From Candidatus Multivoradales bacterium (GTDB lineage Bacteria; Acidobacteriota; Thermoanaerobaculia; Multivoradales; JAHEKO01): a stretch of DNA of 64,000 bases. The DNA lies in the NCBI GenBank assembly GCA_965224065.1, contig CBDCYF010000005.1:3596491-3660490 (forward strand), in the 5' to 3' direction. Positions within the stretch are counted from its first letter, which is position 1; each line of letters starts with the position of its first letter. Shown here piece after piece: positions 30,602-47,281 of the stretch. The translations under genes were made by a program, and so were the position numbers. The notes beneath the pieces are model-generated. The model was not told where the DNA came from. It was given only the letters and a program-made list of their open reading frames with translations, and did not search any database.

Positions 30602-30963
30602 TCAGTCGCACCGTCGAGGGGGGCGCCCGCCCCCGGCTCTTCGAGCTCGCGCAGCTCGACGAGCTCCCGATGGTGGCGAGCGTCTAGGCGGTTGAGCGCC
30701 AGCGCGTAGACCAGGATCAAGAGAACAAACGTCAGGATGCTCCCCTGCTGGGCAAACCAGAACCCCAGCGGAAAACCTCCAATGCTGTACTGGTTGAGGA
30801 CATCCGCCAGCAGCACTCCACAGCCCAGGCCGATCGCGGCCCAGATCGCGAGCAGGATCGCCATCACCCGCAGGTTGGAACGCCAGTACCGGTCGATCGA
30901 CGCCGCCACCTTGGGGTCGCGGACGTCGATCGCCGTCCGATCGGGCTTTGCCTCACCGGTCAT
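30598..30963 (-). CDS. DUF4212 small membrane protein, partner of the SSS transporter
   Basis: YWRSNLR, GGFPLGFWFAQQGSI; ATGA-coupled to the symporter. Confidence 0.9.
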
Positions 30964-30993
30964 TCACTCACCTGGTCACGCTCGAGTCGATCG

Positions 30994-31050
30994 ATGGTAC
31001 AAGACGGGTACCATTTCGTGTTGAATCCACGCCCGCCGCTGTCGTAGACT
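30994..31050 (+). promoter_or_regulatory. Palindromic operator plus sigma70-like promoter of the oxidase operon (divergent from the SSS operon)
   Basis: ATGGTAC-N7-GTACCAT (30994-31014) just upstream of TTGAAT-18 bp-TAGACT (31021-31050). Confidence 0.45.
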
Positions 31051-31115
31051 CCGCCAGACCACGGAAGCGGAGGGGCCTCCCTCACCCACACAGGACCTGT
31101 TCCCGAGGAGTCGCG

Positions 31116-32912
31116 ATGAGCGTTCTCGAAAAGGAAGAACACGAAGCCGAGGAACACTCCGAGCACCCCCACGAGCCGTTCTGGAAGAGGTACATCTTCT
31201 CCCAGGACCACAAGGTGATCGGCATCCAGTACGGCTTGACCGCCCTGCTGTTCCTGCTGTTTGGCTTCAGCTTGATGCTCTTGATGCGCTGGCAGCTCGC
31301 CTTCCCGGGCAAGCCGATTCCGTTGATCGGCGGGCTTTTGGGCGAGGCCAACGCCCCGGGCGGCATCATGCTCCCCGAGTTCTATAACCAGCTCGGGGCG
31401 ATGCACGGCACGATCATGGTGTTTCTGGCGGTCGTCCCGCTGGCCGTGGGCGCGTTTGGCAACTATGTCGTCCCGCTCCAGATCGGTGCCCCCGACATGG
31501 CGTTTCCCAAGCTCAACATGGCGAGCTACTGGGTCTACTTCCTCGGCGGGGTGATCATGTTCGCCAGCTTTTTTGTTCCCGGCGGCGCGGCCAACTCGGG
31601 CTGGACCTCTTATCCGCCGCTATCGGAGATCGCCACGGAAGGCCAGACCTGGTGGCTCGTCGGGATGGTCTTTTTGATCACTTCGTCGCTCTTGGGCTCG
31701 GTCAACTTCATCGTCACCATCTTCCACCTGCGGGCCAAGGGGCTGACCCTGATGCGGCTGCCGTTTTTTGTCTGGTCGCAGTTGGTGACGGCTTTTCTCC
31801 TGTTGTTGGCTTTCCCGCCGCTCGAGGCTGCGGGTGTGTTCCAGCTCATGGACCGGGTCTTCGGGACCAGCTTTTTTATGCCCAGCGGCCTGGTGGTGAG
31901 TGGAGAGGTCGTGGAGGTGGCCGGCGGGGGCAGCCCGCTCCTGTGGCAGCACCTGTTCTGGTTTCTGGCCCACCCCGAGGTCTACGTGCTCATCTTGCCG
32001 GCGCTCGGCATTGTCGCCGAGGTGATCGCCAACAACACTCGCAAGCCCCTTTGGGGTTACAAGTCGATGGTCTACGCGTCGATCTTCCTGGGCTTCATGT
32101 CGTTCATCGTCTGGGCGCACCACATGTTCCTGACCGGCATGGGCACCACCATCAGTGCCTTCTTCCAGACCACGACCATGATCATCTCGATCCCATCGGT
32201 GGTGATTCTGACCGCGCTGCTGATGTCGCTCTGGGGCGCTTCGATCCGCTTTACGACGCCGATGCTCTTTGCGCTGGCGTTTCTACCGATGTTCGGGATC
32301 GGTGGCTTGACCGGCTTGCCGCTCGGTCTCTCGCCCTCGGACATCCACCTGCACGACACCTACTACGTCATCGGCCATTTCCATTACGTGGTGGCGCCGG
32401 GGACGATCTTTGCGTTGTTCGCCGGCATCTACTACTGGTTCCCCAAGATCACCGGCCGCAAGATGAGCGACTTTCTCGGCAAGCTGCACTTCTACCCCTC
32501 GTTTGTGTTCATCAACATGATCTTTATGCCGATGTTCATCCAGGGGCTGGCCGGGGTGTCGCGCCGGTTGTGGGACGGTGGAGAGCAGTATTCGCACGCC
32601 CAGGACGTGTTGAAGTGGAACGAGTTCATGTCCTGGGGTGCCTGGCTGCTGCTGGTCGCCCAGTTGCCGTTCATCTTCAACCTGTTCTGGAGCATCAAGA
32701 AGGGCAAGAAGGTGGACGCGAATCCCTGGCAGGCGACGACGCTCGAATGGTCCGCCGCGCCGTCGCCACCGGTCGGCCACGGCAATTTTGTCGAGGTCCC
32801 GGTGGTCCACCGACCTGCCTACGAGTACAGCGTGCCCGGGGCCGCGGAGGGTTTTCTACCGCAGAACATCTCGGATAGGGCTGCGCCCAGCGCGTCCGGC
32901 GAGGAGGGATAG
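31116..32912 (+). CDS. ctaD: Cytochrome c oxidase subunit I, A-type
   Basis: DHKVIG, AMHGTIM, APDMAFP, HPEVY, WAHHM, HDTYYVIGHFHY, GVSRR; ATG at 31116 after GAGGAG. Confidence 0.96.
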   Translation: MSVLEKEEHEAEEHSEHPHEPFWKRYIFSQDHKVIGIQYGLTALLFLLFGFSLMLLMRWQLAFPGKPIPLIGGLLGEANAPGGIMLPEFYNQLGAMHGTIMVFLAVVPLAVGAFGNYVVPLQIGAPDMAFPKLNMASYWVYFLGGVIMFASFFVPGGAANSGWTSYPPLSEIATEGQTWWLVGMVFLITSSLLGSVNFIVTIFHLRAKGLTLMRLPFFVWSQLVTAFLLLLAFPPLEAAGVFQLMDRVFGTSFFMPSGLVVSGEVVEVAGGGSPLLWQHLFWFLAHPEVYVLILPALGIVAEVIANNTRKPLWGYKSMVYASIFLGFMSFIVWAHHMFLTGMGTTISAFFQTTTMIISIPSVVILTALLMSLWGASIRFTTPMLFALAFLPMFGIGGLTGLPLGLSPSDIHLHDTYYVIGHFHYVVAPGTIFALFAGIYYWFPKITGRKMSDFLGKLHFYPSFVFINMIFMPMFIQGLAGVSRRLWDGGEQYSHAQDVLKWNEFMSWGAWLLLVAQLPFIFNLFWSIKKGKKVDANPWQATTLEWSAAPSPPVGHGNFVEVPVVHRPAYEYSVPGAAEGFLPQNISDRAAPSASGEEG

Positions 32913-32915
32913 GCG

Positions 32916-33557
32916 ATGCAGATTCCCTACACCGTCGAAGAGCGGCCCGACACCGGGCTCTACAACGCCAAGCTGGGCGTCTGGCTGTTCCTGGCCTCCG
33001 AGGTGATGCTGTTTGGCGCGCTGTTTTCCTCGTACGTTCTGCTGCGCACCGGCGATCCGGCGTTTATGACCATCCCGCATTCGATCGCCGACGCCTTGCA
33101 CCTGGGTGAGGGAACACACCGCTGGCCCGACGAGCTCAACGTGCCGCTGGCCTTTGTCAACACTCTGGTGCTGATCTTCTCCAGTGTCACCATCGTGATG
33201 TCGTGGGCCTCGCTGAAGCTCAAAGAGTTCGACAAGTACCGGTTGTGGATGGGGTTGACGCTGCTCTGCGCGCTGGCCTTTATGTGCATCAAGGCGGTGG
33301 AGTACAACGCCAAGTTCTCGCACGGTCTTTTCCCGGCGACGAGCAACTTTCTCGGCATCTATTTCGCGCTCACCGGCCTTCACGCTCTGCACGTGATCGG
33401 TGGGCTGATCGTCAACGGTTATCTCTGGGGACCGGGCGCCAAGATGTGGAAGACCGAGCCCGAGCGGTTTACCAACCGGGTCGAGGTTGCCGGTCTCTAC
33501 TGGCACTTTGTCGATCTGGTGTGGATCTTTCTTTTTCCCTGTCTTTATCTACTGTAG
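32916..33557 (+). CDS. ctaE: Cytochrome c oxidase subunit III
   Basis: WLFLASEVMLFG, NTLVLIFSS, LTGLHALHV, GLYWHFVDLVWIFLFP. Confidence 0.95.
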   Translation: MQIPYTVEERPDTGLYNAKLGVWLFLASEVMLFGALFSSYVLLRTGDPAFMTIPHSIADALHLGEGTHRWPDELNVPLAFVNTLVLIFSSVTIVMSWASLKLKEFDKYRLWMGLTLLCALAFMCIKAVEYNAKFSHGLFPATSNFLGIYFALTGLHALHVIGGLIVNGYLWGPGAKMWKTEPERFTNRVEVAGLYWHFVDLVWIFLFPCLYLL

Positions 33558-33569
33558 GAGCGACCGAGC

Positions 33570-33875
33570 ATGGGTGGACACACAGCCGAAGAGATCCGGA
33601 GTGAGATGCGCCGGTATTGGGTCGTGGGCACGGCCCTGTTTCTGCTCACCGTCGTTACCGTCGCGGTGAGCTATCTGGACGTGTCGGCGGGGCTGGCGAT
33701 TTTTATCGCCCTGCTGATCGCCTGTCTCAAGGGCGGGCTGGTCGCCGCGGTCTTTATGCATCTGATCTCGGAGAAGCAGGCGATCTATTCACTCTTGCTT
33801 CTGACCTTGATCTTTTTTGTCGCGCTGATGCTCGGTCCACTGGGTGCGCGCTTGGGGTCGGTCGTCGCCGGGTAA
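33570..33875 (+). CDS. Cytochrome c oxidase subunit IV family protein
   Basis: Three TM helices, LIACLKGGLVAAVFMHL. Confidence 0.88.
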   Translation: MGGHTAEEIRSEMRRYWVVGTALFLLTVVTVAVSYLDVSAGLAIFIALLIACLKGGLVAAVFMHLISEKQAIYSLLLLTLIFFVALMLGPLGARLGSVVAG

Positions 33876-33882
33876 CCTCGAG

Positions 33883-34086
33883 ATGTCGCTGCGCGCCTTC
33901 CATCTCTTTTTTGTCGCCGTGTCGATCGTCATGTGCGGCCTGGTAGCGGCGTGGGGACTGCACGACTACCGGCATCACGCCGCCGGCGGCAGCCTGGGCC
34001 TGGCGGTCCTCTGCGCCGTGCTGGGCCTTGGATTGGTGTACTACTGGCTCCGCGTCTATCGCAAGTTTCAGGAGCTCGGCCGTTGA
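33883..34086 (+). CDS. Small two-TM protein in the oxidase operon
   Basis: MSLRAFHLFFV...YYWLRVYRKF, 67 aa, inside the operon. Confidence 0.7.
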   Translation: MSLRAFHLFFVAVSIVMCGLVAAWGLHDYRHHAAGGSLGLAVLCAVLGLGLVYYWLRVYRKFQELGR

Positions 34087-34349
34087 GGGTTCGCTCGGCG
34101 CTGGCGTTCGTTTTCACGCTCGGCCTGCTGGTCCTACCGGAGTCGGCCGACGCCTGCGCCGTCTGCTACGGAGGCGCCGATACGGCGCTCACCCAGGGGA
34201 TGAACAACGGCATTCTGGTGCTGCTCGGGGTCGTCGGGCTGGTCCAAGGTGGCCTGCTGGCTATGTTCTATACGTTTTGGCGGCGCGCTCGAGACCTCAG
34301 AGCTCGGCGTGACAGCTTTCGGGTTCTGGACGGAGGTGTGAATCGATGA
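34083..34349 (+). CDS. Small exported/membrane protein with an N-terminal CxxC motif in the oxidase operon
   Basis: TTG start overlapping the previous TGA; signal peptide ending ADA-CAVCYG; TM helix; ATGA-coupled to subunit II. Confidence 0.72.
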   Translation: MRVRSALAFVFTLGLLVLPESADACAVCYGGADTALTQGMNNGILVLLGVVGLVQGGLLAMFYTFWRRARDLRARRDSFRVLDGGVNR

Positions 34350-35254
34350 AGGACTTTCTGGCGCGTTGGATGCCGATCGATGCCTCGGAGCACGGCGCGG
34401 CGCTCGACAACATGAACGCCCTGATTCACTGGCTGATGGCCTTGCTGTTCGTCGGTTGGGGGATCTACTTCATCTATGTGCTGTTCCGCTTCCGGGCCAA
34501 GAAGAACCCGCAGGCCAGCTACACGGGATCGAAGTCCCATTTTTCGACCTGGATCGAGGGTGGTGTCATTCTGTTCGAGGCGATCCTTCTGATCGGTTTT
34601 GCGATCCCGGCCTGGGCGCGTTGGGTGACCCCCCACGAGCCCGATGACAATCCTCTGGTGGTGCGTGTCGTCGGTCAGCAGTTCGCCTGGAACATCCACT
34701 ATTCCGGGGCCGACGGGGTCTTTGGCCCGACCGACGTCCATCTGGTCAATGAGGCATCGAATCCCATCGGGCTCGACCGGAGCCATCCCACCGCGGTGGA
34801 CGACATCGTCACCATCAACCAGCTCCACCTGCCCGTCGATCGGCCGGTGACCGTGCTGCTGAGCACCAAGGACGTGATCCACAGCTTTGCGTTGCCGGTC
34901 ATGCGGGTCAAGCAGGACGCGATCCCCGGTCAGGAGATTCCGGTGCACTTCACTCCCACTGCCGCCACGCCGCCCGAGGGGCGCTTCCCGGCATGTGCGG
35001 CAGGGAAGGAGTGCTGGGAGATCGCTTGCGCCCAGCTCTGCGGGCTCGGGCACTACCGGATGCGAGGTTTTCTGACGGTCCACGAGCCGGACGGCTTCGA
35101 GGCCTGGCTGGCGGCCGAGGCGCCGGCGCCCGCACCGGCACCGGCTCAGTCCCAGCCGGCGGCGACCGAGGAGAGCGCCGCGGAAGCCCCGTCGGACGAG
35201 CACGCCGACCACGACGCACACACCGATCACTCACAGCATCGGGCCGCCGGTTAG
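34346..35254 (+). CDS. ctaC: Cytochrome c oxidase subunit II (CuA)
   Basis: Two TM helices, GQQFAWNIHY, DVIHSF, CAQLCGLGHYRM; His-rich tail. Confidence 0.93.
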   Translation: MKDFLARWMPIDASEHGAALDNMNALIHWLMALLFVGWGIYFIYVLFRFRAKKNPQASYTGSKSHFSTWIEGGVILFEAILLIGFAIPAWARWVTPHEPDDNPLVVRVVGQQFAWNIHYSGADGVFGPTDVHLVNEASNPIGLDRSHPTAVDDIVTINQLHLPVDRPVTVLLSTKDVIHSFALPVMRVKQDAIPGQEIPVHFTPTAATPPEGRFPACAAGKECWEIACAQLCGLGHYRMRGFLTVHEPDGFEAWLAAEAPAPAPAPAQSQPAATEESAAEAPSDEHADHDAHTDHSQHRAAG

Positions 35255-38357: not shown

Positions 38358-38435
38358 CCCCTGGACGGCACATGTTCATTGCCGGGTGTCGAGCCCTCTG
38401 CTAGCCTGTCTGTCTCACCCCAAACAAGGAGAACT

Positions 38436-39260
38436 ATGAAATCGAAACAGATCGCCGTCGTGGCTTGCTCGCTTCTGGCCCTGGCCGTTCCGTTGGCGGC
38501 CGACGGGGGCAAGAAGGATCTCCGCGAGGAGATCGAGGAGCTCAAAGCCGGCCAGCAGAAGATCCAAAAGGACCTGGCGGAGATCAAAAAGCTTCTCGAG
38601 GCCAGGCCGGCGCCGGCCGCTCAGGGGGCCGCGCGTCGCAGCGGAGCCAATGTCGAGAATGTGGTCTTTGACCTCGGGGACAACCCGGTCAAGGGCGAAT
38701 CCACGGCCAAGCTGACACTGGTCGAATTCTCCGACTATCAGTGACCGTTCTGCAGCCGTCACGTCCGTGAGACGTACCCGCAGATTGCCAAGGAATACAT
38801 CGACACCGGAAAGATCCGCTACGCTATGCTCGATCTGCCGCTCGAGCGCATCCACCCGTTGGCCTTCAAGGCCGCTGAGGCGACCGCTTGCGCCGCCGAT
38901 CAAGGCAAGTTCTGGGAGATGCACGACCGGCTCTTCGCCAACACCCGTAATCTCCAACAGTTGAGCCCGCACGCCGAGGCCGTCGGCCTCGACGTCGCCG
39001 CGTTCGACGAATGCATGGAGAGCAATCGTCACGCCACGGCGGTGCGCAAGGACATGGCCCAGGCCCGCAAGGCGGGCGCCACCGGCACGCCGGCCTTCCT
39101 GCTGGCCCTGACCGATCCGTCTGACCCGACCAAGGTCAAGGGGTTGACCACCTTCCGAGGAGCGCAACCGTTCAACACGTTCAAGACCCAGATCGATGGA
39201 GCGTTGCGCGATCTGGCCAAGGATGCGGCGCAGCCTGGTACGGGCTCGGCGACTCAGTAG
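38436..39260 (+). CDS. Secreted DsbA-like thioredoxin, predicted selenoprotein (U-P-F-C; in-frame TGA at 38742-38744)
   Basis: AAGGAG RBS, signal peptide, LVEFSDYQ-TGA-PFC; the same frame continues into the 38826-39260 ORF (DLPL..IHP, KFWEMHD, GATGTPAF cis-Pro loop). Confidence 0.88.
38750..38783 (+). promoter_or_regulatory. Predicted bacterial SECIS element of the DsbA-like gene
   Basis: CGTC-AC-[GTCC]-GT-ga-GACG stem-loop (38757-38774) inside an outer CTGC/GCAG stem; loop GU at +19/+20 after the UGA. Confidence 0.6.
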
Positions 39261-42905: not shown

Positions 42906-45900
42906 GTGGCATCTCCCTCTTCCATCGCGAGGCTTGCCGGCTGGGCCGTGCTGGCATTGGCCTTGGGCGCGATTCTGACGGGCTGTTCCGGGGAGTCCAC
43001 CGCGGACCGGCCGCGCGCCGAAGCCCTATCCGAGGACGGCGGCTCCACGGTGGCGCTGGTCCGGCGCGAAACGGCGCGCCGGCCCCCGACGCTGGTGGAG
43101 GCCATGGCCGAGAACGTCGATCCCTCGCGGGACGGCTGGAACAGCGAAGTGCTGAGCGCGGCGGCGTCCAAGCGGCTCAAGGAAATCGGGAAGATCCTGG
43201 AGGCGCCCCCCGGCACCCCTCTGGAGGGCGTCGAGGCGTGGGTCGACGAGGAGTTTGTCGGCCGCGCGCTCCGCCCCAACGTTCTCGAGGAGGCTTACTC
43301 CGACGGCGTCTTCACCATCCGCCGCTGGCAGAAGGACCGTGCCACCGGCGAGTCGCATCGCGGAGCCAAGGGGTTCGAGCTCGCTCTCGAGACCCTACGC
43401 ATGGCACGGGCCGCCGACGGCGAGGTTCGCGTGACGCTCAAGCCGGTGGCGATCGAAGAGGGGAGCGATTCGTTCTCGACCCACGTCTTCTTCGACTCGA
43501 GCCTCAGGGAGCGCGGTAGGGGGCTGCAGCGGAACGCGCTGTGGAATGTCGAATGGGCTTATCCGGTGGGGAAGCAGCCACCGCGGTTGCGCGCGGTCGA
43601 GATCGAGCGCTACGAAGAAGTCTCGTTTGCCGGCGACGGCGGCAGGCTTTTCGACGACTGCACACAGTCGGTTCTGGGCGCAAACGAATCCTATGAAACG
43701 CAGGTGCTGCCCGGGATCAACCATTGGCTGGGCCGGGTGAGCCTGATCGCCGGCATGACCATCGTCGGCTTCCATGGTCTGGCGGTGGGCGATGTCGATG
43801 GGGACGGGCTGGAAGACCTCTATGTCTGCGACGCCGCCGGTCTTCCCAACCGTTTGTTCGTGCAGAACCCCGACGGCACCGCGAGGGACGAGTCGGCCGC
43901 GGCCGGGGTCGATTGGCTGGAAGCCAGCTCGTCGGCGCTTTTTGTGGATCTGGACGGTGACGGCGACCAAGACCTGGCCGTGGCGCTGCGGCGTGGGCTG
44001 CTGCTGCACGAGAACGACGGTCGGGGCCGCTTTACGCTTCGCGCCGATCACAAGAACCTCGTCACTCGCTCGTCGTCACTCTCGGCGGCCGACTACGACG
44101 AAGACGGCGACCTCGATCTCTATGTGTGCGGCTACGATGGCGACCCCGACAACAAGGGTCTGCCCGGGCCGGTCCCCTACAACGACGCGGAGAACGGCGG
44201 AGCCAACGTCCTGCTGGCAAACCGCGGTGGTTTTCGCTTTGAAGACGTCACGGCCGAGAGCGGTCTCGACGTCAACAACACCCGCTGGAGCTTTGCCTCG
44301 GCATGGGACGACTACGACGGCGACGGCGACCTCGATCTGTATGTCGCCAATGACTACGGGCGCAACAATCTGTACCGCAACCGTGGAGCGGGCGCCCGGC
44401 CGCGATTTGAGGACGTGGCGCCCGAGACCGGCGTTGAGGACGTCGCCTCCGGCATGTCCGCGGCCTGGGGGGACTACAACCGCGACGGCCGCCCCGACAT
44501 CTATGTGAGCAACATGTTCTCTTCTGCCGGCGGTCGGATCGCGGACAAGACCCGGTTTGCAGAGTCCGCCTCCGAGCCTACGACCCGCGATCTGCAGCGC
44601 ATGGCCAGGGGAAACACCTTGTTCGAAAACGCCGGTGGCCACTTTCGCGACGTCAGTGTCGAATCCGGCGCCACCATGGGGCGCTGGGCCTGGGGCTCCA
44701 AGTTTGCGGACCTGAACAACGACTCCTGGCCCGACGTGGTGGTGACCAACGGCTATGTGACCAATGACGACAGCGGCGACTTGTGAAGCTTTTTCTGGCG
44801 GCAGGTCGTGTCGCGCTCACCCAAGGCCGAGAAAGCGCGCCAGGCGCTGGACGAGTACATCGCGAGCTGGCGAGCGATCACTCGGCTCCTGCGGGAGGGC
44901 CTCTCGTGGAGCGGCTACGAGAGAAACTGCGCATACCTCAATTGCGGTGACGGGCGGTTTGCCGATGTCTCCGCCGCTACCGGTCTGGATTTCGACGACG
45001 ACGGGCGGGCGCTGGCGGTGGTCGACTGGGATCACGACGGCGACCTGGATCTCTGGCTCTACAATCGAACCGGCCCACGCCTGCGGCTGATGCTCAACCA
45101 GAGCCCGGCCGACGGCGACCGCTCGGTGGCCTTCCGGCTGCGTGGCACCCACGCCAACCGCGATGGCGTCGGCGCCCGTGTCGAGGTCGAGTTGGAGGGC
45201 GACCGGCGGCGGCTGGTCGAGACTCTTTACGCCGGTGACGCCTACCTCTCGCAGTCTAGTAAGTGGGTGCACTTCGGCCTCGGGGAGAGCCCCGAGATCC
45301 GCCGCGTCACCGTCGCCTGGCCGGGTGGCGACCGCGAGGCGTTTGCCGGTGTCGTCCCCGGCGGTCGCTATCTGTTGGTAGAGGGCTCGGGCCGCGCCGA
45401 GGAGACGCCACGCCGCGCGGCCGTGACCCTGGCGCCGTCGCCGCCGTCCGGCTCGGTGCCGGGTGGCGGCGTCAAAGAAAGCGCGGAAACGAGGCTGTTT
45501 CTGCCTTCGCGAGTGCCGCTGCCGAGCCTGAGCTATGAGACCGGCGGCGACACGCCGGGTGTGTCGGCTCCGGTCCACCCGGGGCCAGGGCCCGACACGC
45601 CGGCGCTACTGCTCAACTTGTGGGCCAGTTGGTGTGGTCCCTGTGTGACCGAGCTGAAGGGACTGACAGAGCGGCGGGATGAGGTCCGGGCCGCCGGTCT
45701 CGACGTCATCGCACTCACCGTCGAAGAGGTAGACGGCGACGAAGCGACCGGCGCCGCTGACGCCGCGCGCCTTCTCGACCGTATTGACTTTCCCTTTCGC
45801 AGCGGTGTCGCCACCACCGAGCTGCTGGAGAAGATCGAGCTGGTGGAAGCCGTCCTCTACGACCGCAAGTGGCCGTTGGGGGTTCCGGTCAGCTTTTTGC

Positions 45901-46817
45901 TCGACCGGCAAGGGCGCCTGGCGGCGACCTATCGCGGCCCGGTCGACCTCGATGCTCTGCTCGAAGACGTCGCCGCGCTCGACGGGTCTTCCGCCGAGTT
46001 GCACAGTCGCTCCGCTCCGATTCCCGGCCGCTGGCACGCCCGCACCGCGGATGTCGATCTTCTCTGGCTGGGCAGTCAGTTCCGCGACCTCTATCCCCGC
46101 GAGATGGAGCACTACTACGAGTTGGAGCTCGAGCGCCAGACACGGCTCGCCACGCGATCGGGGGCTCCCACCGAGCACCAGCAGAGACGGCGAGGCGTGA
46201 TGTATCTGGACCTGGCGCAAGCGGCCTTCGAGAACGGGCGTATCGAGGATTCGATGACTCAACTGCGCAAAGCGATCGAAGTCGATCCCGGCTCGACCGT
46301 GGCGCGTCTCAATCTGGCCCAACTGCTGCGCTCCGCGGGCCGGACCCCTGAAGCCGTCGATCAGTATCGCGGCGCGCTGAAGGTGAATCCCGCCGACGCC
46401 GAGGCCCACTACGGCCTGGGCACGACCTTACTGGCGGCCGGCGAGGTCGGGGTCGCCTTCGATCATCTGCGCGAGGCCGCGCGTCTGTCGCCCGAATCCC
46501 CGGCACCGCTCCACGCCATGATCTGGGTGTTGCTCAATTACTCGAACCCGGACGATCGGCGGCAGCTCGGCGAAGCGCTCGAGCTTGCGGAGCGCGGCGT
46601 GGAGATGACGGACCGGCAGGACGCGAGGATGCTCGACGCGCTGGCAGCCGCCCAGGCAGCGATGGGGGAGTACGATCTCGCCGTCGAGACCGCGGAGCAG
46701 GCGGGTACCCTGGCGCGGGCCGCCGGGGAAGCCGCGCTGTTATCGCAGATCGAGCTGCGGCTCCGGTTTTTCCGTCGCGGTCTGCCGTTCCGGGAAGGCG
46801 CCACACCACCAGCTTGA
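42906..46817 (+). CDS. Lipoprotein FG-GAP / ASPIC-UnbV / TlpA-thioredoxin / TPR protein, predicted selenoprotein (in-frame TGA at 44784-44786)
   Basis: ORFs 42906-44786 and 44808-46817 share a frame; the junction reads NGYVTNDDSGDL-TGA-SFFWRQVVSRSP; lipobox LTGC; FG-GAP repeats on both sides of the TGA; YLSQSSKWVHFGLG; NLWASWCGPC; TPRs; fdhF-like SECIS follows. Confidence 0.82.
44798..44814 (+). promoter_or_regulatory. Predicted bacterial SECIS element
   Basis: GCGGCA-[GGTCG]-TGTCGC 6-bp stem starting 12 nt after the UGA; contains GCAGGTC, as in the E. coli fdhF SECIS apical loop. Confidence 0.72.
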
Positions 46818-46858: not shown

Positions 46859-47281
46859 GTGCTCGATGTCTCGCTGCTTCCAACCGTCAACGCGGCCCTC
46901 AACGGAACCGCCGCGGTGCTGCTGGTCTGCGGCTACTTCCTGATCCGAGCCCGGCGGGTCAAGGCCCATCGCGCGGTCATGCTGTCTGCCTTTGTTTGCT
47001 CGGTCCTGTTCTTGACGTCCTATCTCTACTACCACTCGCAGGCGGGGAGCGTGCGTTTCCCCGGGACCGGGCCGGTGCGCACGCTCTACCTCACCATCCT
47101 CCTCACCCACACCGTGTTGGCTGCGGCGGTGCCGTTTCTCGCCGTCATCACGTTGGTGCGCGCGCTCCGGCGGCGGTTCGACCGGCATCGTGCCATCGCC
47201 CGCTGGACCCTGCCGATCTGGCTCTATGTCTCGGCGACCGGCGTGGTCATTTACTGGATGCTGTACCGGATGAGCTGGTAG
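46859..47281 (+). CDS. DUF420 family membrane protein
   Basis: LPTVNAALN, HRAVMLSAF, FLTSYLYYH, LTHTVLA, HRAIARWTLPIWLYVSATGVVIY. Confidence 0.9.
   Translation: MLDVSLLPTVNAALNGTAAVLLVCGYFLIRARRVKAHRAVMLSAFVCSVLFLTSYLYYHSQAGSVRFPGTGPVRTLYLTILLTHTVLAAAVPFLAVITLVRALRRRFDRHRAIARWTLPIWLYVSATGVVIYWMLYRMSW

What the first reader, a model, noticed from the sequence alone, without database searches (positions are those of the whole stretch)
42906..46817. Candidate selenoprotein with a non-thioredoxin Sec site: FG-GAP/ASPIC-UnbV propeller lipoprotein read through an in-frame UGA
Seen in the sequence: the 626-aa ORF (42906-44786) and the 669-aa ORF (44808-46817) share a frame, separated only by TGA and 7 sense codons. 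The junction reads NGYVTNDDSGDL-*-SFFWRQVVSRSP. FG-GAP repeats continue on both sides, so the stop cuts the propeller mid-domain. The second ORF has no RBS or signal peptide of its own, although its domains (ASPIC/UnbV, WCGPC TlpA thioredoxin, TPR) should be exported with the LTGC lipoprotein N-terminus. A hairpin GCGGCA-GGUCG-UGUCGC starts 12 nt after the UGA. Established: the E. coli fdhF SECIS (GGUUGCAGGUCUGCACC) begins 11 nt after its UGA and carries the same GCAGGUC. Inference: one 1303-aa protein with Sec at residue 627 in a propeller loop rather than a UxxC/CxxU motif, plus a separate CxxC domain that could re-reduce it. This would be a self-contained periplasmic selenol redox enzyme in a family (CRTAC1/ASPIC-UnbV) with no assigned chemistry. 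I cannot verify whether it has already been reported.
Basis: partly seen in the sequence, partly recalled or inferred. Interest (0 to 1): 0.92.

Follow-up and report, generated by a model that had tools for sequence, protein, structure and literature searches.

The report
Selenocysteine-containing CRTAC1-like propeller–thioredoxin lipoprotein
The two adjacent reading frames are almost certainly one exported ~1,300-residue protein in which an in-frame UGA is read as selenocysteine, a widespread bacterial selenoprotein family that databases split into two genes and that current selenoprotein catalogues omit.

Summary
The selenocysteine (Sec) reading is strongly supported.

- **Conserved TGA.** I examined the window plus 80 loci from Planctomycetota, Verrucomicrobiota, Acidobacteriota and one Flavobacteriaceae MAG. 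The codon at this column is TGA 82 times, a sense codon 3 times, and never TAA or TAG. The same genes' real stops are mixed (32 TAG, 21 TGA, 8 TAA).
- **Reading frame.** Translation continues in frame with a conserved SF[FY]WRQVV. Codon variation there is synonymous.
- **SECIS.** An 11-nt spacer is followed by the hairpin GCGRCA-GGUCG-UGYCGC. It is 98% paired and has compensatory changes at 3 of 6 pairs. It meets all four published bacterial SECIS criteria and mirrors E. coli fdhF.
- **Cys homologs.** Natural Cys-form homologs exist. P0129 has the identical domain architecture.
- **Redox context.** All 62 complete Sec forms carry a ResA/TlpA-like CxxC domain. Cys675 co-varies with Sec/Cys at the recoded column. 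In a confident model of P0129, the equivalent Cys starts a helix.
- **Second Sec gene.** A neighbouring DsbA-like gene has TGA at the first Cys of its CxxC motif, so this genome probably decodes Sec.

Sec machinery in the source genome could not be checked, and the chemistry is inferred. The family is absent from the 2026 catalogue (119 families) and from NCBIfam. However, a 2016 supplementary table already listed four such gene pairs as candidates.

The parts
42906..46817 (+). Whole read-through gene, 1303 codons plus stop. The start at GTG 42906 is provisional. The gene caller behind P0001 used a start 14 codons later.
   Evidence: The single-frame translation has one internal TGA. Both halves have high GC3 (0.83 and 0.81).
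42975..42986 (+). Lipobox L-T-G-C (Cys27) at the end of a hydrophobic signal segment.
   Evidence: Read directly from the translation. Signal-like N-termini occur in 59 of 67 family N halves and in 0 of 67 C halves (heuristic).
43773..44765 (+). FG-GAP beta-propeller blades upstream of the Sec codon (approximate limits).
   Evidence: Pfam FG-GAP_3 at 4.6e-37 with 5 stretches, and FG-GAP at 9.6e-20.
44784..44786 (+). UGA read as selenocysteine (residue 627).
   Evidence: TGA at 82 of 85 homologous junctions and never TAA or TAG. Cys at this column in P0003, P0121, P0123 and P0129.
44787..44807 (+). Codons +1 to +7 (SFFWRQV). They are translated and also supply the spacer and 5' arm of the SECIS.
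   Evidence: Variation is synonymous: Ser AGT/AGC/TCG, Arg CGG/CGA/CGC/AGG with 0 non-synonymous pairs, and Trp invariant.
44798..44814 (+). Bacterial SECIS core. The 6-bp stem is GCGGCA/UGUCGC (44798-44803 paired with 44809-44814). The loop GGUCG is at 44804-44808.
   Evidence: 98% paired across 67 distinct sequences, compensatory changes at 3 of 6 pairs, and 0 of 500 shuffles reach the covariation score. RNAalifold predicts the same structure. It meets the bSECIS criteria of PMC13188914. MFE is -8.9 kcal/mol.
44928..44930 (+). Cys675 (TGC), candidate resolving cysteine at the end of the two-helix insertion that begins with Sec627.
   Evidence: Present in 57 of 68 Sec/Cys forms against 14 of 69 forms with another residue at column 627 (Fisher 2.8e-14). 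Its position comes from the secondary structure of the P0129 model.
45165..45368 (+). UnbV_ASPIC domain.
   Evidence: Pfam PF07593 at 1.7e-15. The model matches murine CRTAC1 9etn_A with TM 0.74.
45606..45953 (+). ResA/TlpA-like thioredoxin-fold domain. The WCGPC motif is at 45630-45644 (Cys910, Cys913).
   Evidence: Pfam AhpC-TSA and Redoxin are above cut-off. The CxxC motif is invariant in 62 of 62 complete Sec-clade proteins. The model matches ResA 2f9s and 4nmu.
46164..46724 (+). TPR repeats.
   Evidence: Multiple Pfam TPR families. Foldseek matches TPR structures.
46815..46817 (+). True stop codon (TGA).
   Evidence: Terminal stops of the homologs are mixed: 32 TAG, 21 TGA, 8 TAA.

Best explanation
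Window 42906-46817 is a single gene for an exported lipoprotein of about 1,303 residues. Its parts, in order, are an N-terminal domain, a CRTAC1-like FG-GAP propeller with UnbV_ASPIC, a ResA/TlpA-like CxxC thioredoxin domain, and TPR repeats.

The UGA at 44784-44786 is decoded as selenocysteine (U627). This is directed by a minimal bacterial SECIS hairpin (44798-44814, loop GGUCG) placed 11 nt downstream, as in E. coli fdhF.

Shown here: the recoding signature, the SECIS, the Cys orthologs, the domain architecture, and the helix-N-terminal position of the residue in a homolog model.

Inferred: U627 is a redox-active nucleophile on an insertion in the propeller. After reacting with an oxidised substrate, it forms a selenenylsulfide with Cys675. 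The in-cis CxxC domain reduces that bond. The CxxC domain is in turn recharged from the cytoplasm by a CcdA/DsbD-type membrane reductase. The substrate is unknown.
For: **1. Stop identity.** TGA occurs at 82 junctions, TAA or TAG at none, and sense codons at 3, across at least three phyla. The same genes' terminal stops are mixed.

**2. Reading frame.** Of the top 120 N-half homologs, 102 end at ...DL. All 120 top C-half homologs are separately called fragments. Codons +1 to +7 vary synonymously.

**3. SECIS.** The stem is 98% paired. The fourth pair from the stem base (alignment columns 24/34) is AU 30, GU 23, GC 10, CG 3. Two sequences have CG to AU at the second pair, and three have AU to GC at the loop-closing pair. 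Several of these changes alter the encoded amino acids. None of 500 shuffles reaches the covariation score, and slid controls pair at only 13-66%. The loop bases G27, G28 and U29 are at least 90% conserved. All four bSECIS criteria are met, and 68 of 69 family hairpins fold at or below -7.5 kcal/mol. The geometry equals fdhF. Sense-codon homologs have a decayed stem.

**4. Sec/Cys pair.** P0129 has Cys at the column and the same FG-GAP, UnbV_ASPIC, AhpC-TSA and TPR architecture.

**5. Redox context.** The CxxC motif is present in 62 of 62 Sec forms. Cys675 co-varies with Sec/Cys. In the model of P0129 (pLDDT 90.5, pTM 0.91), the equivalent Cys644 is the first residue of helix 644-654.

**6. 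Export.** Signal-like N-termini occur only on the N halves.

**7. Sec use.** The window's DsbA-like gene has TGA where 100 of 100 matched homologs have the first Cys of CPFC or CPYC. A true SelD lies 9 kb from the copy in L030. Planctomycetes P1 and P2, which carry such gene pairs, have full selA/B/C/D sets (PMC4807772).
Against:
- Most read-through relatives have Glu, Ser, Asp, Ala or Asn rather than Cys at the column: E22, S19, D13, A9, N5, C4. This is atypical for selenoprotein families. It means the residue is not catalytic across the whole superfamily.
- There is no UxxC or CxxU motif.
- The hairpin is short and not energetically exceptional in single-sequence folds.
- Ten Sec forms, a Verrucomicrobia subclade, lack Cys675.
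- There is no experimental evidence of selenium incorporation.
Confidence: 0.85

Rival explanations
1. This is a conserved split gene. Translation terminates at the UGA and restarts at the GTG seven codons downstream, giving two polypeptides that assemble into one propeller. The hairpin would serve coupling or re-initiation.
For: Gene callers in every database start the second ORF at that GTG. GTG is present at codon +8 in 59 of 69 sequences.
Against: - Codons +1 to +7 are under amino-acid selection and match the continuous SFFWRQVV of read-through homologs.
- Codon +8 is not a start codon in 8 of 69 sequences, and 6 of 69 have no in-frame start within 24 codons.
- The GTG is itself part of the covarying stem.
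- The exclusive use of TGA would be unexplained.
- The C half has no export signal although it carries a ResA/TlpA-type domain.
Confidence: 0.04
2. This is programmed UGA read-through that inserts a standard amino acid, such as Trp, Cys, Arg or Gly, through a near-cognate or suppressor tRNA. The downstream hairpin would stimulate it, and no selenium would be involved.
For: Full-length translation and TGA specificity would also fit. One homolog has Trp (P0028) and one has Gly (P0038) at the column. Sec machinery was not seen in the window.
Against: - The hairpin matches the SelB-binding bSECIS consensus in loop sequence (GGU), loop size and spacing, and equals fdhF.
- Cys orthologs, a co-varying partner Cys and an obligatory CxxC domain point to chalcogen redox chemistry.
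- A second gene in the window has TGA at a catalytic Cys.
- Carriers P1 and P2 have full Sec machinery.
Confidence: 0.05
3. This is Sec-containing as in the best explanation, but Sec627 acts as a ligand to a metal or metalloid, as in formate dehydrogenase or [NiFeSe] hydrogenase, rather than cycling through a selenenylsulfide.
For: The residues at this column in relatives (Glu, Asp, Ser, Asn, Cys) are all potential metal ligands. FG-GAP propellers bind Ca2+ through Dx[DN]xDG loops, a context described for CRTAC1-type proteins (PMC3123361, listed). There is no UxxC or CxxU motif.
Against: The CxxC thioredoxin domain is fused in 62 of 62 Sec forms but in only about 12 of 85 non-Sec forms. Cys675 tracks Sec/Cys. 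The helix-N-terminal position is typical of redox-active Cys or Sec (plus general knowledge).
Confidence: 0.15
4. This is a private nonsense mutation, a pseudogene or a sequencing error in this genome.
For: None beyond the presence of a stop codon.
Against: The same TGA is found in 81 other junctions in other genomes, with intact downstream frames of 417-845 codons.
Confidence: 0.005

Closest known systems
E. coli fdhF Sec-UGA with its minimal SECIS
   Same: The in-frame UGA is followed by an 11-nt spacer and a short hairpin whose apical loop contains GGUC. The AGGUC motif starts 17 nt after the UGA here, against 18 nt in fdhF. The element lies inside the coding sequence.
   Different: The stem is a perfect 6-bp helix without the bulged U of fdhF. 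The protein is unrelated. In fdhF, Sec ligates molybdenum (PMC13188914), and no metal site is known here.
Thioredoxin-fold extracytoplasmic selenoproteins: DsbA/DsbG-like UxxC, and UGC-containing TlpA family (NF041054, cd02966)
   Same: These are also exported redox proteins of the same phyla. The window protein carries a ResA/TlpA-like domain. A DsbA-like UPFC gene sits 3.6 kb upstream.
   Different: Here the thioredoxin motif keeps both cysteines (WCGPC). The Sec lies about 280 residues upstream, in the propeller, in the motif DL-U-SFFWRQ. NF041054 scores 40.9 bits against a cut-off of 300.
CRTAC1 / ASPIC-UnbV family (murine CRTAC1, PDB 9etn)
   Same: Both have an FG-GAP propeller plus an UnbV_ASPIC domain. 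Foldseek gives E = 2.9e-23 and TM 0.74 normalised to CRTAC1. Sequence search also hits 9etn.
   Different: No Sec or catalytic role appears for CRTAC1 in the PDB entry title, the Pfam description or the literature searches. The bacterial proteins add an N-terminal domain of about 250 aa, a two-helix insertion carrying Sec, a thioredoxin domain and TPR repeats.
[quoted passage not shown] 2016, PMC4807772, Table S9)
   Same: They have the same domain description. They are annotated as two genes. bSECISearch was positive for 3 of 4. The organisms have full Sec machinery.
   Different: They appear only in a supplementary table, with Gly as the aligned residue in the closest hit. There was no family-wide analysis, Cys ortholog, covariation test or thioredoxin link. 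I did not have those sequences, so identity with this clade is inferred from the description.

Membership tests
Bacterial selenoprotein (Sec-UGA recoding) | An in-frame UGA conserved among orthologs, with coding conservation on both sides | tested here: met
   82 TGA, 0 TAA or TAG, and 3 sense codons at the column. Variation is synonymous in codons +1 to +7.
Bacterial selenoprotein (Sec-UGA recoding) | A bSECIS directly downstream: 3-9 nt loop, 4-16 bp stem, G in the first two loop positions, 16-37 nt from the UGA to the loop, and MFE at or below -7.5 kcal/mol (PMC13188914, Fig. 2) | tested here: met
   The loop is 5 nt (GGUCG), the stem is 6 bp, the distance is 17 nt, and the MFE is -8.9 kcal/mol. 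Covariation supports the stem. 68 of 69 family members fold at or below -7.5.
Bacterial selenoprotein (Sec-UGA recoding) | Homologs with Cys aligned to the UGA | tested here: met
   P0003, P0121, P0123 and P0129 have Cys there, and P0129 has the same architecture. Cys is nevertheless a minority among read-through relatives (4 of about 85).
Bacterial selenoprotein (Sec-UGA recoding) | tRNA-Sec, SelA, SelB and SelD in the same genome | not testable with these tools
   None is in the 64-kb window, and the source genome is not retrievable. Indirect support comes from a second TGA gene at a catalytic Cys, SelD next to the copy in L030, and carriers P1 and P2 with full machinery.
Bacterial selenoprotein (Sec-UGA recoding) | Selenium shown in the protein (75Se labelling or mass spectrometry) | not testable with these tools
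   This needs an experiment.
A catalogued selenoprotein family (119 entries in PMC13188914 Table 1; NCBIfam release 20 models) | A match to a listed family, domain or model | tested here: not met
   The table has no FG-GAP, VCBS, ASPIC/UnbV or CRTAC1 entry. NCBIfam gives 0 hits for the N half and only sub-threshold TPR and thioredoxin hits for the C half.
CRTAC1 / ASPIC-UnbV family | FG-GAP repeats forming a propeller, plus the UnbV_ASPIC domain | tested here: met
   Pfam PF13517, PF01839 and PF07593 all score above their cut-offs. The homolog model matches 9etn_A with TM 0.74.
ResA/TlpA-type thiol-disulfide oxidoreductase (as a domain) | A thioredoxin fold with a CxxC motif, in an extracytoplasmic protein | tested here: met
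   AhpC-TSA scores 29.7 against a cut-off of 26, and Redoxin scores 28.6 against 26.6. The motif is WCGPC. The model matches ResA 2f9s and 1st9, and 4nmu. Export is inferred from the lipobox.
UGC/WAxxUGC TlpA-like selenoproteins (NF041054) | Sec within the thioredoxin active-site motif | tested here: not met
   The motif is WASWCGPC, with Cys. The score is 40.9 bits against a cut-off of 300. No second in-frame TGA was found in the C halves.

The most novel reading that the evidence does not exclude
The Sec clade of bacterial CRTAC1/ASPIC-UnbV proteins would be a self-contained extracytoplasmic selenoenzyme. A selenol on a helical insertion of a beta-propeller (U627) cycles through a selenenylsulfide with Cys675. 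A covalently fused ResA-like CxxC domain regenerates it. This would be the first Sec active site in a propeller fold and the first assigned chemistry for the CRTAC1 superfamily. Several paralogs per genome would suggest substrate diversification in Planctomycetota and Verrucomicrobiota.
Probability: 0.45. Interest if true: 0.75.

Novelty: new member of a known kind. Interest (0 to 1): 0.62.

Why it matters
- **Annotation.** Hundreds of genes in environmental Planctomycetota, Verrucomicrobiota and Acidobacteriota are currently annotated as two unrelated proteins ("VCBS/FG-GAP repeat protein" and "ASPIC/UnbV, TPR or thioredoxin protein"). Recognising the recoded UGA corrects those annotations. 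It also enlarges the selenoproteomes of these phyla, often by several paralogs per genome.
- **Detection.** It supplies a compact, highly conserved SECIS that could seed a detection model.
- **Biochemistry.** A Sec residue marks the functional site of a large exported propeller protein whose superfamily, including vertebrate CRTAC1, has no assigned chemistry. The obligatory in-cis thioredoxin domain and the co-varying Cys suggest a concrete, testable redox cycle.
- **Evolution.** It is an unusual selenoprotein family in which most non-Sec relatives carry Glu, Ser or Asp rather than Cys. This bears on how Sec sites arise.

Tried and rejected
- **Rfam scans** at gathering and at permissive thresholds found nothing relevant. 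Rfam has no general bacterial SECIS model, so this is uninformative.
- **Single-sequence folding z-scores** were not significant. The 6-bp hairpin cannot be told from GC-rich background by energy, and only the comparative analysis was decisive.
- **tRNA search and tblastn** with E. coli SelA, SelB and SelD covered the window and 1.26 Mb of flanks. They gave only SelD in L030. The 'SelB' hit in L076 turned out to be EF-Tu.
- **The look-up of encoding contigs** for the window's own protein returned nothing, so the source genome stayed hidden.
Model coordinates are not exposed, so U627-C675 and U627-CxxC distances could not be measured.
- **Conserved neighbours** were absent. Only the family itself and antisense shadow ORFs recur, so an operon-based functional clue was rejected. 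The local COX1, COX2 and DUF420 context is not conserved.
On inspection all 12 have TGA plus the hairpin.
- **BSepDB supplements** are not held, so its family list could be checked only through the companion review.


Full report
**1. Observation**

The window holds an ORF at 42906-44786 that ends in TGA (44784-44786). An in-frame continuation runs to 46817. The junction reads NGYVTNDDSGDL-*-SFFWRQVVSRSP.

Pfam finds FG-GAP repeats before the stop. After it come one more FG-GAP repeat, UnbV_ASPIC, an AhpC-TSA/Redoxin thioredoxin-fold domain with WCGPC, and TPR repeats. The N-terminus has a hydrophobic segment ending in the lipobox LTGC.

**2. The stop is conserved, and it is always TGA**

A protein search across the junction returned 120 best hits. 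Of these, 102 (57-75% identical, from several phyla) end at exactly the same ...(G/D)DL residue. The 18 that read through are more distant, at 36-51% identity.

I fetched 80 genomic loci from Planctomycetota, Verrucomicrobiota, Acidobacteriota and one Flavobacteriaceae MAG.

| Codon position | TGA | TAG | TAA | Sense codon |
|---|---|---|---|---|
| Recoded column (85 junctions) | 82 | 0 | 0 | 3 (Ser, Tyr, Ala) |
| True terminal stop of the same genes (61 with a complete 3' end, of the 70 junctions found first) | 21 | 32 | 8 | n/a |

Sources: for the column and for the terminal stops. Every downstream half continues in frame for 417-845 codons. This excludes a private mutation or a sequencing error. 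A reassigned genetic code is also unlikely, because TGA terminates many genes here.

**3. The segment after the TGA is translated**

Codons +1 to +7 encode SF[FY]WRQV, and their variation is synonymous. Ser is AGT, AGC or TCG. Arg is CGG, CGA, CGC or AGG, with no non-synonymous pair. Trp is invariant.

Gene callers start the second ORF at the GTG at codon +8. That codon is not a start codon in 8 of 69 sequences, and 6 of 69 have no in-frame start within 24 codons. N halves have signal-like N-termini in 59 of 67 cases, and C halves in 0 of 67 (a simple heuristic). A termination and re-initiation model therefore fits poorly.

**4. A SECIS element**

The 69 junction sequences align without gaps. 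After an 11-nt spacer comes the hairpin GCGRCA-GGUCG-UGYCGC.

- 98% of cells are paired.
- Three of six pairs show changes on both sides. The fourth pair from the stem base (alignment columns 24/34) is AU 30, GU 23, GC 10, CG 3. Two sequences have CG to AU at the second pair. Three have AU to GC at the loop-closing pair.
- None of 500 column shuffles reaches the observed covariation score.
- Sliding the 3' partner drops pairing to 13-66%.
- RNAalifold predicts the same structure independently.
- Some compensating changes alter the encoded residue (Ser to Pro or Ala, Gln to Arg), so the RNA is selected in its own right.

The element meets all four constraints of the published bacterial SECIS model (PMC13188914). 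The loop is 5 nt on a 6-bp stem. The loop starts with G-G. The distance from UGA to loop is 17 nt. The MFE is -8.9 kcal/mol, and 68 of 69 family members fold at or below -7.5.

The spacer is also 11 nt, and AGGUC starts at nt 18 after the UGA, against nt 17 here. In the three sense-codon homologs the stem has decayed to 3-5 of 6 pairs and the loop reads GGUGG. That control is small but agrees.

Single-sequence folding energies are not exceptional, and Rfam has no applicable model.

**5. Cys orthologs and redox context**

A search of representatives with the Cys-form P0003 gave these residues at the column in read-through relatives:

| Residue | Glu | Ser | Asp | Ala | Asn | Cys | Gln | Met | Trp | Gly | Arg |
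|---|---|---|---|---|---|---|---|---|---|---|---|
| Count | 22 | 19 | 13 | 9 | 5 | 4 | 3 | 3 | 1 | 1 | 1 |

One Cys form, P0129, has exactly the window's architecture: FG-GAP, UnbV_ASPIC, AhpC-TSA with WASWCEPC, and TPR. That makes a proper Sec/Cys pair, although Cys is a minority in the wider family.

All 62 complete Sec-clade proteins carry an invariant W[AS]xxCxxC motif. Only about 12 of 85 non-Sec forms do. Cys675 is present in 57 of 68 Sec/Cys forms and 14 of 69 others (Fisher 2.8e-14, not corrected for phylogeny).

An AlphaFold model of P0129 is confident (pLDDT 90.5, pTM 0.91). It places the Sec-equivalent Cys644 as the first residue of helix 644-654. That helix opens a two-helix insertion after a propeller blade. 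The Cys675 equivalent (Cys692) begins the next strand, where the insertion returns. A helix N-terminus is the usual site of redox-active Cys or Sec in thioredoxins, peroxiredoxins, GPx and MsrA (general knowledge).

Foldseek matches the model to murine CRTAC1 (9etn, TM 0.74), to ResA/TlpA proteins and to TPR arrays.

**6. Does the genome decode Sec?**

The window has no tRNA and no selA, selB or selD, and the rest of the genome could not be reached. Three indirect lines support Sec use.

- Window 38742 is an in-frame TGA in a DsbA-like gene. There, 100 of 100 matched homologs have the first Cys of CPFC or CPYC, which makes the window's motif UPFC. This is a catalogued type of selenoprotein.
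- A SelD above the TIGR00476 cut-off lies 9 kb from the copy in L030.
- Planctomycetes P1 and P2, which carry split ASPIC/FG-GAP candidates, have full Sec machinery.

**7. Mechanism**

Shown: one exported polypeptide containing a recoded UGA with a SECIS.

Inferred: U627 is a redox nucleophile. Cys675 resolves it as a selenenylsulfide. The in-cis ResA-like CxxC domain reduces that bond and is recharged by a CcdA/DsbD-type system. The TPR repeats bind a partner or substrate.

The main functional rival is Sec as a metal ligand. It is suggested by the Glu, Asp, Ser and Asn residues at this column in relatives. No conserved neighbour helps to identify a substrate.

**8. Novelty**

Searches pairing selenoprotein or selenocysteine with FG-GAP, ASPIC, UnbV, VCBS or CRTAC1 found nothing relevant in main texts.

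The 2026 review's inventory of 119 families has no such entry. The main text of the BSepDB paper (111 families) does not mention this family, and its family list is not held. NCBIfam release 20 has no model for the family. NCBI and JGI name the halves separately.

However, Table S9 of Kim et al. [quoted passage not shown] The recoding idea therefore has a prior mention.

New here:
- the family-wide proof of the conserved TGA;
- the SECIS covariation;
- the Cys ortholog with the same architecture;
- the obligatory thioredoxin fusion;
- the co-varying Cys675;
- the structural position of the Sec-equivalent residue.

I rate it a new member of a known kind: a selenoprotein family that is uncatalogued and systematically mis-annotated.

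**9. Verdict**

| Item | Rating |
|---|---|
| Observation | confirmed |
| Confidence that this is a Sec-containing single protein | about 0.85-0.9 |
| Confidence in the proposed redox cycle | about 0.45-0.5 |
| Interest | 0.62 |

Noticed in passing
window 38433-39260 (+), TGA at 38742-38744: A second selenoprotein candidate: an exported DsbA-like protein reading ...EFSDYQ-TGA-PFC. All 100 matched homologs have CPFC or CPYC there, so the window's motif is UPFC. It is related to NF041057 ('DsbG-like', 111.6 bits, below the 190 cut-off). A downstream hairpin with loop CGUGA lies 21 nt after the UGA.
   Followed up: yes
L035:11708 and L074:9811: Two Pirellulaceae copies read GDC-TGA-SFFW instead of GDL-TGA-SFFW. 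This puts a Cys directly before the Sec (a CU dyad).
   Followed up: no
L049:11654 (Flavobacteriaceae MAG): A variant hairpin in a shifted register, UUUGGCGAC-AGGUU-GUCGCCAAA, which allows up to 9 bp. It is the only non-PVC, non-Acidobacteriota carrier among the 80 loci, which may indicate horizontal transfer.
   Followed up: partly
L002 (3433 and 11743), L056 (6481 and 10573), L061 (4557 and 11732), L067 (885 and 8504): These contigs each carry two TGA-containing paralogs within about 4-8 kb. The family is expanded within genomes.
   Followed up: partly
L030:75-686: A SelD gene (TIGR00476, 145 bits against a cut-off of 125) lies about 9 kb upstream of the TGA-containing copy in a Verrucomicrobia MAG.
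   Followed up: yes
L008, L023, L037, L040, L045, L052, L073 (Verrucomicrobia: Roseibacillus, Akkermansiaceae): A subclade of Sec forms lacks Cys675. It has a different CxxC context (WSxxCxxC or FSGTCESC) and shorter C halves (429-533 aa). It may use a different resolving partner.
   Followed up: partly
P0028 and P0038 (protein hits): Two read-through homologs with a thioredoxin domain have Trp (a codon one step from TGA) and Gly at the column. Kim et al. also reported Gly in the closest hit. These may be secondary losses of Sec.
   Followed up: no
window 30948-35254 and 46859-47281: Cytochrome oxidase subunits COX1 and COX2 lie upstream. A DUF420 gene starts 42 nt after the stop of the selenoprotein gene. 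This is suggestive, given the roles of ResA/TlpA proteins in cytochrome maturation, but the arrangement is not conserved in other loci.
   Followed up: partly
P0003 (protein hit), residues 914-989: The Cys-form homolog ends in a fragment of a short-chain dehydrogenase (PF13561). This is probably a gene-calling or assembly fusion.
   Followed up: no
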